A stretch of DNA of 64,000 nucleotides, taken from positions 181,536,001-181,600,000 of the forward strand of contig OZ024742.1 of assembly GCA_964016885.1 (NCBI GenBank), written 5' to 3'. The first letter of the stretch is position 1. Every line of letters begins with the position of its first letter. The notes beneath the pieces are model-generated. The model had not been told where the DNA came from, did not search any database, and saw only the letters and a program-made list of their open reading frames with translations. The stretch is from Eledone cirrhosa. Its lineage: Eukaryota. Both the position numbers and the translations under genes were made by a program. Shown here one piece after another: positions 1,092 through 51,186 of this stretch.

Positions 1092-2745
1092 AGGTCACAT
1101 GTCTCAGATGAAGAATTAAAAGGAATCCCTCTTGAGACTATATTCCAAAACAACGTTATGTTTAAGTTGCCAGAGTAAGCCCGATAATGAAGTTGAAGAT
1201 TTTGGGATTCCTTTTAATTCTTCATCTGAGACATGTGACCTCTGCGTGGAGGAGATATTCTTTATATTAAAATCTAAAAATTCCCTTAATCTAAGGAGCA
1301 ATTTATTCAGTTGCTGCAGACATAGATTGAACTCAACGTTTAAATATAAATATAAATTTAAAATGTAGTATATTTAGTTAAGATATTTAATTAATTATGT
1401 AACCTGACGATAAATCTTTCGATTCCTTCAACTTTTTCTTTTTAAACCTTCATAAATATATACTAATGATGTAATTAAACTACCCTAAAATGTTGATGCT
1501 CCCAATCTATTGAATAAATTTTACGCTAGATAAACTTCTATACTAAATATAAGAGCATTTGTAGAACAACAGGGTCTCTTAAATCTTTTAAATGATTTCT
1601 GCTAATTAAGTCTTGTTGAATAATTTTGGTTTTTTGTTTGTTTTTTTATTCTGATTGCTTCTAATGAACTTGGCAATATATTGTCAGATAAATTGGAAGG
1701 GTTGATTTCTGTGGTCGATATGGGACGCATACTGTGTTTTTTTAAGGCCCTTGATAATCTAGGGAGTGATGAAAGTATTCTTAGCGTTTTGATATATTAA
1801 TGTCTGTTGTCTATTCTATACATGAACGATAATCATGTATGTGAGTGCAGGAATATTAATATTAATATATATTTTTATGTATGTATATGTATGTATATAT
1901 ATATATAGTAAAATCTTTCATAACGCAAGGGAAAATTTTTTCATGTGAAATAAGAAATTACAGAGCTGATCACGTAAGTTCATGTGTATATCTATAGTAT
2001 CATGTATTTTTGAAGTTTTATCTCAGGTTTTGATATATCGACCTAAGAATTTTTAAACTAAACATATGGTCATTATTTTTCACACATTATATATCTATGT
2101 CTCATTCATGAATATTGATATTTACATTATAATACCCAATTCATATGAATTGATAATTCAAACTGATAGGACATAACGTAAAGTTATAAATCTGTCATCC
2201 TTCTCTCTTGATATAACTCTTTCTTCTCCACCCTCTATAAAGAAAATTTAAGTATCGCTGTTTTCTCTTTATTTATTTTTTATTTCTCTCCGTCTCCTTA
2301 ACACTATAACTAAATAAATGAATAAATAAATAATTACAGTACTCCCTCCCTCCTTAATCTCTCAATTTGTATGATGAATTATTATTATTATTATTCATCT
2401 GTTGCCTCAGCTGCCTCTCAATTTTCACCCCCTCACTATTTCTCTCTCCCATATCTCTCTCTATCTCTCTCTGTTTTTCTTTACATACATTTATTCCTTC
2501 TCTCCGTCTTTCTTTTTTAACTATGTTTAACACTAAATATTTACAAACATTTCACTACCAAACCAACTTTTTTAAATGGAAGTTGAACAATATTCATGGT
2601 ACGTCAAATATATTTATAAAACTGCTTATATATTGTATTTTATCTGAAGAAGGCATGCCATATTTCTAATATGGTATCCCTGAAATATGTATAATGAAAT
2701 AAATATGGTTTTATAAATATAGTTTCCATTTGTTTAATATCGTAT
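1092..2745 (+). mobile_element. Probable decayed Penelope-like element remnant
   Basis: Starts with a 38-bp perfect inverted duplication (1092-1129/1204-1241); ends in a hammerhead-like motif followed by (TA)n; no recognisable protein motif left. Confidence 0.4.
2636..2694 (+). ncRNA. Degenerate type-I hammerhead ribozyme motif
   Basis: CTGAAGA (2644-2650), stem II aggcatgccatatt/aatatggtatccct, GAAA (2682-2685); stem III and cleavage register imperfect; enclosed by tatttataaaac/gttttataaata pairing. Confidence 0.45.
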
Positions 2746-2814
2746 ATATGTATATATATGTATATATATATGTATATATATGTATATGTATATATATATG
2801 TATATATATATATA

Positions 2815-3801
2815 TCATCATCATCATCATCATCAGGTTTAGCGTCCGTGTTCCACGCTTGCATGGGTTTGGACGGGGGTTTTCCCACTTGAGGCAAGAG
2901 TGGTTGTCTTGCTCGCATAGGACTGTCTGGCGGGTTTTCTACAGTTGGATGCCCTTCCTAACACCAACCACATTTACAGTGTGGGGCTGGGAGGTTTTTA
3001 CCGTGTTGCCTACACGGCCACATTACAGCGTGGACTGTCTGGCGGGTTTTCTACAGCTGGATGCCCTTCCTAACACCAACCACATTTACAGTGTGGGGCT
3101 GGGAGGTTTTTACCGTGTTGCCTACACGGCCACATTTACAGCGTGGACTGTGTGTTTTTTGTCGTGACACCTACACGATCTCATTTGTTTCGGCCTGGAT
3201 GTTGTGGGACCAACATAACTTTACATTGAAAGGGGCGGTGTGGGTGGGGTGGAGGTGGTGGGACGGGGGTGTGTTTTGATAGAGGTGCCTACTGACTGTA
3301 GTAGGTTTTTACTTTGTATTTAGGTAAGGCGGGTCTTCTCTATTACTGAGTACCGCCAAAGGTCTCGGTCCAGTGACATTGTCTTGGAGAGGTGTAAGCG
3401 TGTGAGGTCGGAATTTATCAGCTCGTCCCATGTTTTTCTGGGTCTGCCTACTCCGTGGCTACCGTCTATCTTTATTGCCCTGCACTTTGTTATACAGCTG
3501 TCGTCTTTCATGCGCATCACGTGACCGTACCAACGTAGCCTTCTCTCGAGTAAACAACATCTGATCCCTCTTATTTCTAATTTTTTTCTTAGTTCGTTTA
3601 TGCTTTGCCGTTCACGTATATTACTATTGCACATCCAGCGGAGCATGCAAGCTTCGTTCCTCTCTAGTCTGCGTATATCCTCTGCACACAATGCCCAGGT
3701 CTCACTGCCATGCAGCATTGCTGTTCGTATGCAGGCATCGTATAACCTGCCTTTCATTTTTAGGGAGAACCCTCTAGCGGCTAATAGTGGTATAAGCTCT
3801 C
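2815..3801 (-). mobile_element. RTE LINE subfamily A 3' fragment with 3'UTR and (GAT)n tail
   Basis: [13 protein letters not shown]...[12 protein letters not shown] at 3320-3801; (CAT)n at 2815-2835; 112-bp tandem duplication in the 3'UTR. Confidence 0.95.
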
Positions 3802-6750
3802 TATATATATATGTATAAATATATGTATATATATATCTATTTATATATGTATATATGTATATATATATATATGTATATATATGTATATATATATATATAT
3901 ATATGTATATATATATGTATATATATATGTATATATATATATGTATATATGTATATATATATGTATATATATATATATATATATGTATATATATCTGTAT
4001 ATATATATATATGTATAAATATATGTATATATATATATATATATATATGTATATATATCTGTATATATATATGTATAAATATATGTATATATATTTATGT
4101 ATATGTATATATATATATATGTATATATATATATGTATATATATATATATATGTGTATATATATATATATATATGTATATATATATGTATATATATATGT
4201 ATATATATATATGTGTATATATATATATATATATGTATATATATATATATAAGTATATATATATATATGTATATATATATATGTATATATATATATATAT
4301 ATGTATATATATATATATATATATATGTATATATATATATATATATATATATATATATATATATGTATATATATATATATGTATATATATATATATGTAT
4401 ATATATATATATGTGTATATATATATATATGTATATATATATATATATGTATATATATATGTATATATATATATATATGTATATATATATATATATATGT
4501 ATATATATATATATGTATGTATATATATATATATATGTATATATATATGTATATATATATATATGTATATATATATATATATATGTATATATATATATAT
4601 GTATATATATATATATATATATGTATATATATATATATATATATATATATATATATATATGTATATATGTATATATATATATGTATATATATATATATAT
4701 GTATATATATATATGTATATATATATGTATATGTATATATATATGTATATGTATATATATATATATATGTATATGTATATATATATGTATATATATATGT
4801 ATATATGTATATGTATATATATATGTATATGTATATATATATGTATATGTATATATATATATATATATATATATATGTATATATATATATATATATGTAT
4901 ATATGTATATGTATATATATATATATATATGTATATATGTATATGTATATATATATATGTATATATGTATATGTATATATGTATATGTATATATATATAT
5001 ATATATATGTATATATATATATATATGTATATATATGTATATATATATATATATGTATATATGTATATATATATATATATGTATATATATATATATATGT
5101 ATATATGTATATATATATATATATGTATATATATATATATATATATATGTATATATATGTATATATATATGTATATATATATATATATATATATGTATAT
5201 ATATATGTATATATATATATATATATGTATATATGTATATATATATATATATGTATATATATATATATATGTATATATATATGTATATATATATATATAT
5301 ATGTATATATATATGTATATATATGTATATATGTATATATATATATATATGTATATATATATATATATGTATATATATATATATATGTATATATATATAT
5401 ATATGTATATATATATGTATATATATGTATATATGTATATATATATATATATGTATATATATATATATATGTATATATGTATATATATATATATATGTAT
5501 ATATATATATATATGTATATATATGTATATATGTATATATATATGTATATATATGTATATATATATATATATATATGTATATATATATATATATGTATAT
5601 ATATATGTATATATATGTATATATATATATATATATATGTATATATATGTATATATATATATATATATGTATATATATGTATATATGTATATGTATATAT
5701 ATATGTATATATATGTATATATATATATATATATATGTATATATATATATATATGTATATATATATATATATGTATATATATGTGTATATATATGTATAT
5801 ATATATATATGTATATGTATATATATATGTATATATATATGTATATATATATGTATATATATGTACATATATATGTATAAATATATGTATATATGTATAT
5901 ATATATATGTATATATATGTATATATATATATATGTATATATATGTATATGTATATATATGTATATATATATATATGTATATATATGTATATATATGTAT
6001 ATATATATATATATGTATATATATATATGTATATATATATATATATATGTATATATATATATATATATGTATATATATATATATATGTATATATATATAT
6101 ATATGTATATATATATATATATGTATATATATATATATATGTATATATATATATATATGTATATATATATATATGTATATATATATATATATATATGTAT
6201 ATATATATATATATATGTATATATATATATATATATATGTATATATATATATATGTATATATATATATATATGTATATATATATATATGTATATATATGT
6301 ATATATATATATATATATATGTATATATATATATATATATGTATATATATATATATATATATATATATATGTATATATATATATATATATGTATATATAT
6401 ATATATATGTATATATATATATATGTATATATATATATATATATGTATATATATATATATGTATATATATATATATATATGTATATATATATATATGTAT
6501 ATATATATATATATATGTATATATATATATATGTATATATATATATATGTATATGTATATATATATGTATATGTATATATATATGTATATGTATATATAT
6601 ATGTATATGTGTATATATATATGTATATGTATGTATATATATATGTATATGTATGTATATATGTATGTATATATATATGTATATGTATGTATATATATAT
6701 GTATATGTATGTATATATATATATATATGTATATATATATATATATATAT
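3802..6750. repeat. About 2.95-kb (TA)nTG interrupted microsatellite array
   Basis: TA runs interrupted almost only by G on the + strand. Confidence 0.98.
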
Positions 6751-50372: not shown

Positions 50373-50649
50373 CTTTAGTGATCTACATTTCCCGAAGCTG
50401 AATATTTACATGGAGGCCGGCAATGTTTTGCCTTCTCTGCGAAGATGGCATGATACCAGCAAAATAATGAATTGCTGGCGGCCCATGTGGAGTCGCGAAA
50501 GAACGCGAACGACTCCTAGGCCGCCGGGAATACGGCCTATTCTCCCTGCATAACCGAGTGACTTGCTGCATCAAATTTTGCATAGTTGCAAGAAATAAAA
50601 TATTAGTTTCGTCAATTTTTTTTTTTCTATGTTTCTCTAAAAGTTTTTC

Positions 50650-50667
50650 ATCACGTCGGGGTCACCA
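50650..50667 (-). promoter_or_regulatory. Primer binding site, tRNA-Trp
   Basis: TGGTGACCCCGACGTGAT 1 nt downstream of the 5'LTR; the known 18-nt tRNA-Trp PBS. Confidence 0.88.
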
Positions 50668-51135
50668 CTTTAGGAGAGATGGTCACCATTTTAGAAGGCT
50701 GCGTTGTTTTATGATTTAGAGGGGAGTTCATTTCTCTAGCTTGGCTGGTAGAACATCTCTACTATTTGTTGTTAGGTGTAGGTACACAATTAAGCAAATA
50801 AAAAACATACCTCGAGATTATATGTACATGAGCATTTTAATCAGAGCAATTAAGAAAACAGGTTATCATATCAGTTGTTCCTAGGTTGGTAATTCGTAAT
50901 TATCATTAATTGACGGTCTTCAATTGTCCCGTGACCGCATGGTGTGTTATCGCTGTTTCGCCACCGTAAAACGCGTCTGTTCGCCTCTACAGACAAAAGT
51001 CGAAGAGAGAGTTTATTCAGCTACTGACGTCAGAACTAAGGGCAGTTAATCGACTGCCTCCAAAGTCAAAGCTAGGTGGCATGATCTTCTACATTCTGAA
51101 TGACTAGGATTTTAATCACCTGTTTAGACATTCCC

Positions 51136-51186
51136 TATACTCTGATGATTCCAGACTTACCTCTGGAAGAAACAATTGTCAACAAA
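51136..51186 (+). ncRNA. Hammerhead ribozyme core with decayed stem I
   Basis: CTGATGA (51142-51148), stem II ttccaga/tctggaa, GAAA, palindromic stem III ACAATTGT, triplet GTC; stem I barely pairs; (CA)n follows. Confidence 0.65.

What the first reader, a model, noticed from the sequence alone, without database searches (positions are those of the whole stretch)
2636..51186. Six diverse hammerhead ribozyme motifs in microsatellite-embedded Penelope-like pieces, all full cores sense to the host transcript
Seen: complete type-I folds at 8475, 13426 and 27095, decayed ones at 2644 and 51142, and a 3' half at 6829-6970. Their sequences differ outside the core, and each element sits in or beside TA/CA microsatellite. 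Known: PLE pseudo-LTRs carry minimal hammerheads with palindromic stem III that are thought to cleave as dimers. Inference: several independent ribozyme-bearing PLE or non-autonomous retrozyme-like families target these arrays. All five full cores are on the + strand, so they could cleave the host pre-mRNA if they are intronic. With n=5 the orientation may be chance.
Basis: partly seen in the sequence, partly recalled or inferred. Interest (0 to 1): 0.85.

Follow-up and report, generated by a model that had tools for sequence, protein, structure and literature searches.

The report
Penelope retroelement hammerheads, no strand bias
These are real hammerhead-ribozyme folds left by common Penelope-type jumping genes and a related non-coding repeat that land in TA repeats all over this genome; they sit in what is likely an intron at the genome's normal density, show no strand preference once neighbouring DNA is counted, and are predicted to be mostly inactive toward the host RNA.

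Summary
All six motifs exist and are not chance (0 control hits in 800 kb). They come from six repeat families. Three (2644, 13436, 6752-6970) are tied to autonomous Penelope-like elements (PLEs); proteins of the 13436 and 6752 families have Hydra-clade motifs. One (8482) is a piece of a 466-nt ORF-less tandem retrozyme. Two (27102, 51142) are pLTR-like pieces with no ORF link found. The motif at 2644 is not decayed: it equals its family sequence. The host is a PLXDC-like gene on the + strand. The sense bias disappears outside the window: 9 sense and 6 antisense over 158 kb of inferred gene (p=0.61). Random DNA holds 45 such folds per 800 kb, so 3.6 are expected per window and 4 are seen. Host-RNA cleavage is unsupported and untested. 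The class is known (PLE hammerheads, non-LTR retrozymes, octopus Hydra PLEs). The less ordinary part is the 6752-6970 element: two 5'-end fragments of one PLE joined head to head, nearly always one long and one short arm (50 of 53), with 5' ends clustering inside ribozyme stem II. This suggests transcription starts inside the ribozyme.

The parts
2002..2742 (+). 3' end (UTR plus pLTR) of a young 5'-truncated PLE; type-I hammerhead at 2636-2701 (core 2644, predicted cleavage after 2693). Some sisters also match 1204-2002, as a separate BLAST piece of undetermined orientation.
   Evidence: 1425 candidates, 40 scored, 96-98% for full-length matches; 4 of 19 sisters have a PLE endonuclease hit upstream on the same strand
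6752..6888 (-). long arm: 137 nt of a PLE pLTR/5' leader, holding the 3' half of a hammerhead plus the 77-nt tail
   Evidence: (40 of 40 scored copies 100% over 139 nt)
6889..6909 (.). copy-specific junction made of re-copied pieces of the unit's 5' end
   Evidence: junctions differ among the 20 loci shown
6910..6970 (+). short arm: same 5' end, no tail; hammerhead 3' half (GAAA 6928-6931, stem III 6931-6949, site after 6950)
8223..8390 (-). inverted arm of the retrozyme insertion (monomer positions 258-425)
8392..8745 (+). forward arm (monomer positions 3-356) of a 466-nt ORF-less tandem retrozyme; hammerhead at 8475-8519 (core 8482, site after 8512)
9385..13770 (+). 5'-truncated young PLE: ORF 3' end with GIY-YIG endonuclease (9385-10470), 3.3-kb microsatellite-rich 3' UTR, pLTR with hammerhead at 13426-13579 (core 13436, 115-nt stem II, site after 13569)
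   Evidence: 150 scored, 96-99% aa for other copies; 2393 candidates, 40 scored, 99%
27094..27290 (+). old solo pLTR-like piece; hammerhead at 27094-27227 (core 27102, 99-nt stem II, site after 27219)
   Evidence: (no same-strand PLE ORF hit within 1.5 kb in 19 sisters)
51095..51226 (+). truncated pLTR-like piece; decayed hammerhead (core 51142, stem I lost)
   Evidence: (1933 candidates, 40 scored, 93-98%)
52770..52888 (+). host exon, PLXDC-like (transmembrane segment and HPTS motif)
59112..59210 (+). host last coding exon with stop, PLXDC-like
3802..9385 (.). TA-rich microsatellite array holding the 6752 and 8223 insertions

Best explanation
The six motifs are hammerhead folds carried in the terminal repeats of Penelope-like retroelements and of a likely PLE-dependent tandem retrozyme, inserted independently at (TA)n arrays in what is likely the second-to-last intron of a PLXDC-like gene, and they are predicted to be passengers with little effect on the host RNA. 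Shown: each motif belongs to a dispersed family; three families are linked to RT/GIY-YIG ORFs; one forms ORF-less 466-nt tandem arrays; density and orientation match the genome average. Inferred mechanism: the PLE protein nicks both strands in (TA)n and primes cDNA at two fixed internal start sites of the RNA, one per strand. The two cDNAs are then joined head to head, which gives inverted ends with a tail on one side only. When priming occurs in the 5' leader, both cDNAs run off the RNA 5' end after about 140 and 60 nt, which yields the 6752-6970 hairpin. Ribozyme cleavage does not appear to define the inserted templates.
For: Family membership. ORF link: at least six same-strand endonuclease/pLTR pairs 3-6 kb apart when the lists are compared; 4 of 19 for the 2644 family; L184 is a partial-tandem PLE with the 6752 unit at its pLTR end and an ATG 245 nt after the unit start. 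Retrozyme: spacing 466-467 nt, one hammerhead per unit, longest ATG frame 50 aa, 36% GC. Covariation in 29 homology-selected 2644-like copies: 88% of cells paired, 7 pairs with two-sided change, covariation score above 500 of 500 shuffles and above all slid controls. Two 3' ends: 60 (17 arms) and 140 (19 arms) of 42; 350-356 and about 425 in the retrozyme. Long+short pairing in 50 of 53 head-to-head copies, short+short in 3, long+long in 0 (includes loci selected on the long arm). 5' ends at the cleavage site: 0 of 16 unbiased arms, 1 of 45 overall. Orientation. Density. Both-strand priming, two internal start sites and dispensable ribozyme cleavage were shown in vitro for a lizard PLE (PMC11167929, parts 1-2 of 4 read).
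Against: No RNA data: cleavage, expression and start sites are all untested. The intron assignment depends on unplaced contig C549 filling a 200-N gap 5.3 kb upstream of the window. For 27102 and 51142 no ORF link was found (0 of 19 each, only 1.5-kb flanks). No PLE pLTR homologous to the retrozyme's hammerhead region was seen among the stored loci (first 30 rows below 90% identity). Pfam named no domain in the window or L184 PLE proteins, so the domain calls rest on motifs read by eye. The 13436 motif has a perfect 8-nt stem III and may cleave as a monomer. In one search the number of covarying pairs alone did not exceed the shuffles (225 of 500), and related sequences inflate the score.
Confidence: 0.85

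Rival explanations
1. The sense-strand cores were kept or selected because they cleave the host pre-mRNA and tune its splicing, as reported for the CPEB3 intronic ribozyme.
For: Four full folds and one decayed core are sense in 52.8 kb, none antisense. Two copies are young and intact. 13436 folds strongly (z -4.6). CPEB3 precedent: PMC10919898, search listing only.
Against: 5 sense and 6 antisense in the other 105 kb of inferred gene; total p=0.61. 3.6 motifs are expected per 64 kb by chance, P(4 or more)=0.48. The young copies are 97-100% like many others, which points to recent insertions rather than conserved host elements. PLE hammerheads cleave poorly even as dimers (PMC4209133, parts 1-2 of 4), and 8 of 9 frog retrozyme dimers did not cleave (bioRxiv 10.64898/2026.07.22.740005, parts 1-3 of 5).
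Confidence: 0.05
2. The fixed 5' end of the 6752-6970 type copies is a reverse-transcriptase stall and fold-back at the stem II hairpin of a full-length RNA, not a transcription start.
For: The end lies 17 nt inside stem II, near an inner hairpin. Ends scatter from -5 to +10, and 6 of 20 unbiased arms read through. Palindromic inverted junctions were earlier read as self-priming (PMC3846280, passages).
Against: Two subfamilies with different inner hairpins stop near the same A of a TYA+1GT initiator-like motif (the motif name is recalled). The retrozyme also has arms starting at such a motif in 3 of 6 other loci. A simple fold-back does not explain why the second arm ends at a fixed second start site.
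Confidence: 0.3
3. The 6829-6970 'half hammerhead' is an unrelated MITE-like palindrome whose GAAA and GUC are coincidental.
For: It is a perfect 59-bp hairpin; a search with the canonical core found no full parent within a 33-nt gap; Rfam gives only generic hairpin hits.
Against: Longer copies continue into the stem II 5' strand, a variant core and the stem I 5' strand, upstream of a PLE ORF start. The junction differs from copy to copy, unlike a MITE.
Confidence: 0.03

Closest known systems
Hydra-clade Penelope-like elements (Craig et al. 2021, PMC8557442; Hydra-1_Obim listed for an octopus with (TA)n preference in supplement file 1)
   Same: C-terminal GIY-YIG, DKT and CxCX5C linker, CxxC and CxH around E and N, (TA)n targets, pLTR hammerhead, inverted 5' copy, tail at one end.
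   Different: Longer (3' UTR up to 3.3 kb), stem II up to 115 nt, tail about 70-80 nt instead of 30-40, RWR in place of RWK in L184, and one family with a 3-8 core variant. No tree was built and no sequence comparison with Hydra-1_Obim was made.
PLE minimal type-I hammerheads with palindromic stem III (Cervera and de la Pena 2014, PMC4209133; Lunse et al. seen only as a cited title in PMC6765202)
   Same: Type-I topology, short palindromic stem III, many diverse families per genome, mostly single motifs from truncated elements, U3-A8 core variant, pairs on opposite strands.
   Different: Extrapolated count of about 1.7e5 canonical folds here, against thousands in the genomes of that paper; C3/A8 and C4 core variants as family consensus.
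Metazoan non-LTR retrozymes (PMC7229834, passages; bioRxiv 10.64898/2026.07.22.740005)
   Same: ORF-less tandem monomers, one type-I hammerhead each, GC under 45%, co-occurring with PLEs.
   Different: Monomer of 466 nt, slightly above the 150-450 range; insertions show PLE-type inverted arms and two 3' ends; circular RNA not tested.
PAc Poseidon element in vitro (Frangieh et al. 2024, PMC11167929)
   Same: Two internal RT start sites, both strands primed, AT-rich targets, no trace of ribozyme cleavage in inserted templates.
   Different: That study saw no difference in start site between strands. Here head-to-head pairs are almost always long+short, and very short copies stop inside stem II.

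Membership tests
Type-I hammerhead ribozyme | conserved core (CUGANGA, GAAA, UH) with three helices, open stem I | tested here: met
   2644, 8482, 13436, 27102 meet it; 51142 lacks stem I and 6910-6970 lacks the 5' half, so those two do not
Type-I hammerhead ribozyme | stem covariation among homologues | tested here: met
   for the 2644 group only (29 sequences; 6 of 34 hits left out: four edited arms and two shortened copies)
Type-I hammerhead ribozyme | self-cleavage at the NUH site | not testable with these tools
   needs an in vitro assay
EN+ Penelope-like element | single RT + GIY-YIG ORF linked to the repeat | tested here: met
   13436, 2644 (endonuclease hits in 4 of 19), 6752 unit (L184); domains read from motifs, Pfam silent
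EN+ Penelope-like element | ORF link for 27102 and 51142 | tested here: inconclusive
   0 of 19 each on the same strand within 1.5-kb flanks
EN+ Penelope-like element | pLTR with inverted 5' copy and one-sided tail | tested here: met
   not seen for 27102 (0 of 19)
Hydra clade | RWK, DKT, CxCX5C linker, CxxC and CxH motifs, (TA)n targeting | tested here: met
   read by eye in the translations against section 11 of PMC8557442; L184 has RWR
Hydra clade | phylogenetic placement of the RT | not tested
   no reference clade sequences were held as tool results
Non-LTR retrozyme (8223-8745 family) | two or more tandem units each with a type-I hammerhead, no ORF, GC under 45% | tested here: met
   L003, L007; the window copy itself is less than one monomer
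Non-LTR retrozyme (8223-8745 family) | expressed as circular RNA | not testable with these tools
   no RNA holder listed
Host-regulatory intronic ribozyme (CPEB3- or amniote HH9-like) | sense-strand bias within the gene | tested here: not met
   9 sense, 6 antisense, p=0.61
Host-regulatory intronic ribozyme (CPEB3- or amniote HH9-like) | single-copy conservation across species | tested here: inconclusive
   all six are multicopy repeats here; no relative genomes were available

The most novel reading that the evidence does not exclude
One PLE family starts transcription inside its own hammerhead. The 5' end of its RNA then carries only the substrate half and cannot self-cleave. The PLE dimer primes one strand at the far start site and the other at the near one, so priming in the 5' leader produces on the order of 10^4 genomic hairpins of about 200 bp. 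These are a genomic record of the PLE insertion mechanism and a possible large source of double-stranded RNA for A-to-I editing.
Probability: 0.4. Interest if true: 0.55.

Novelty: new member of a known kind. Interest (0 to 1): 0.32.

Why it matters
The headline idea, sense-biased ribozymes cutting a host transcript, is not borne out: a window like this is average for this genome. What remains useful is the scale (about 1.7e5 hammerhead folds, extrapolated from 800 kb) and a large natural set of young PLE junctions. The long+short asymmetry and the fixed 5' end speak to two open questions: how PLEs form head-to-head inverted ends, and what their hammerheads are for. Both can be tested with start-site mapping and an in vitro priming assay.

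Tried and rejected
Whole-window Rfam scan was swamped by microsatellite miRNA hits; Rfam on 6745-6975 gave only generic hairpins. The repeat finder was swamped by the arrays. A canonical-core pattern for the parent of the 6752 unit gave 42 hits that were junction by-products or joins to other elements; the parent has a variant core. DNA searches with 6752-6828 and 8391-8646 returned nothing because common words are skipped, which is no evidence of rarity. A genome-wide count and junction survey of the 6752 family was not obtained, so those numbers rest on stored loci and sampled DNA. Query 50900-51226 retrieved a neighbouring repeat, not the hammerhead. The exon peptide found nothing, and Pfam named none of its five homologues. 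No RNA holder was listed, and contigs of four runs showed no splice joint among the listed rows: uninformative. An extra G before the 5' A (18 of 19 arms ending exactly there) could be cap-derived but is confounded by query selection, so it is not counted as evidence. My first monomer estimate of 388 nt (notes) was wrong; it is 466. Earlier findings of the scan: none returned.
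Full report
Observation. A two-strand descriptor scan finds type-I hammerhead cores on + at 2644, 8482, 13436, 27102 and 51142, the last without stem I. The stricter version keeps four and finds none on minus. Shuffled windows give 0.017 hits each, and 800 kb of reversed genomic DNA gives 0. Rfam HH9 matches 8464-8535 below its gathering score. 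Minimum-energy folds recover stems I and II for four motifs. Region 6829-6970 is a perfect 59-bp inverted repeat, so its half motif lies on both strands. The six regions share no BLAST-level sequence.

What each one is. 2644 lies at the 3' end of a young PLE. It matches its family in 17 of 19 sisters, so it is not decayed, and 4 of 19 sisters show a PLE endonuclease upstream. 13436 is the pLTR hammerhead of the PLE whose ORF end lies at 9385-10470. At least six other loci show the same order 3-6 kb apart, and the motif passes in 20 of 20 loci. 8482 belongs to a 466-nt ORF-less monomer that forms tandem arrays with one hammerhead per unit; the window holds an inverted arm plus a forward arm, less than one unit. 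27102 is an old solo piece (80-84% to its best relatives; 8 of 19 sisters pass the motif test). 51142 has lost stem I, and its family core is CCGAUGA in 24 of 26 copies. The proteins of the 13436 and 6752 families carry the motifs given for the Hydra clade, and a Hydra family with (TA)n preference is already listed for an octopus. Pfam recognised no domain in these proteins. Among 29 homology-selected relatives of 2644, stem I is 99.6% paired and 7 pairs change on both sides.

The 6752-6970 element. The 40 scored matches are 100% identical over 139 nt, yet the junctions differ among the 20 loci shown. Arms start at one of two fixed points, 77 nt apart. Locus L184, about 40 kb beyond the window end, shows the parent: a partial-tandem PLE in which this unit ends the pLTR and precedes the next ORF start by 245 nt. 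The full hammerhead there has stems I-III but reads CUGAGAA in all 33 arms that reach the core, and UUGANAA in two other copies. In unselected DNA, 14 of 20 arms end within -5 to +10 of one A inside stem II and 6 read further (21 arms; one diverged subfamily arm dropped and one reassigned). Head-to-head pairs are long+short in 50 of 53 cases (some loci were selected on the long arm). About seven such short pairs occur in 1.2 Mb (hand count), which extrapolates to the order of 10^4.

Host gene and orientation. Two + strand exons at 52770-52888 and 59112-59210 match proteins named plexin domain-containing. No other exon was found in the window or in 220 kb upstream on the same contig. The upstream exons lie on unplaced contig C549, and a 200-N gap sits 5.3 kb before the window, so the window up to 52769 is likely intronic. 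Counting all inferred-genic DNA gives 9 sense and 6 antisense (p=0.61), of which 5 and 6 lie outside the window. Flanking DNA gives 4 to 6 upstream and 2 to 8 downstream. Eighty evenly spaced 10-kb stretches hold 45 canonical folds, 23 on + and 22 on -. That is 3.6 per 64 kb and about 1.7e5 per genome by extrapolation. Microsatellite association is real (84% versus 33% within 300 nt).

Mechanism. Shown: family identity, PLE-type ends, two 3' ends, average density and orientation. Inferred: both-strand priming at two internal sites, then head-to-head joining, in line with the in vitro behaviour of PAc (PMC11167929). Arms almost never begin at the cleavage site (0 of 16 unbiased, 1 of 45 overall), which agrees with that paper's finding that cleavage is not needed. 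The stem III palindromes differ among the window's motifs and no same-family sense partner lies in the window, so dimer cleavage in the host pre-mRNA is unlikely. 13436 could fold a short stem III alone. None of this was assayed. The reading that the fixed 5' end is a transcription start rests on end clustering and an initiator-like motif; RT stalling remains possible.

Comparison with what is known. PLE hammerheads, their dimer model and low activity are in PMC4209133 (parts 1-2 of 4 read) and PMC6765202 (passages). Non-LTR retrozymes are in PMC7229834 (passages), and their PLE origin and depletion from genes are in bioRxiv 10.64898/2026.07.22.740005 (parts 1-3 of 5; supplements closed). Inverted ends, one-sided tails and (TA)n bias are in PMC8557442 (passages, section 11, supplement search). 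Internal promoters with an initiator are in PMC2377424 and PMC3846280 (passages). Searches listed no paper that, by title or shown abstract, describes a start site inside a PLE hammerhead or a census in this animal group. That library omits most subscription papers and Repbase.

Verdict. Real motifs, known kind, no evidence for an effect on the host. The short head-to-head copies are the part worth following. Interest 0.32.

Noticed in passing
L045:3218-3442 and L047:4-228: An inverted pair of 2644-like pLTRs captured in the 3' UTR of the 9385-family PLE shows 12-13 A-to-G changes in one arm and 8 T-to-C in the other, against 1 and 1-2 in three control copies. This looks like A-to-I hyper-edited RNA that was reverse-transcribed into the genome; the edits destroy one hammerhead core. 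Both loci share the insertion.
   Followed up: partly
window -5474 to -5275 (L188:4526-4726) and G000:C549: Scaffold gap; unplaced contig C549 holds the upstream PLXDC-like exons on its minus strand and probably belongs in this gap.
   Followed up: partly
L007 monomer end, upstream of the point matching window 8390: An octamer-like motif (name recalled) directly precedes an initiator-like motif at which retrozyme arms start in the window and in 3 of 6 other loci; possible promoter of the retrozyme.
   Followed up: partly
window 12100-12290; L004: A piece resembling a second hammerhead-bearing repeat seen in L004, whose core region looks related to 8482; judged by eye.
   Followed up: no
window 40994-41360: Another short PLE ORF fragment on +, without a hammerhead nearby.
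   Followed up: no
window 47600-50130: Broken LTR-retrotransposon pol on the minus strand (RT and integrase domains).
   Followed up: no
window 55351-57969 and many fragments: Abundant RT + PHD non-LTR elements with (CAT)n tails (RTE-like, label recalled), also inserted at TA arrays; one long open frame lies in the last intron.
   Followed up: no
random stretches L274-L353: Eight further folds with a UUGAUAA core, from at least two other families; core variants are common enough to be missed by canonical searches.
   Followed up: no
L150, L159, L166, L167, L174, L178: The 6752 unit is joined head to head to arms of other hammerhead-bearing families, which suggests that two different RNAs can be used in one insertion.
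   Followed up: no
window 41361-41779: Inverted pair of a SINE-like repeat, about 84% complementary.
   Followed up: no
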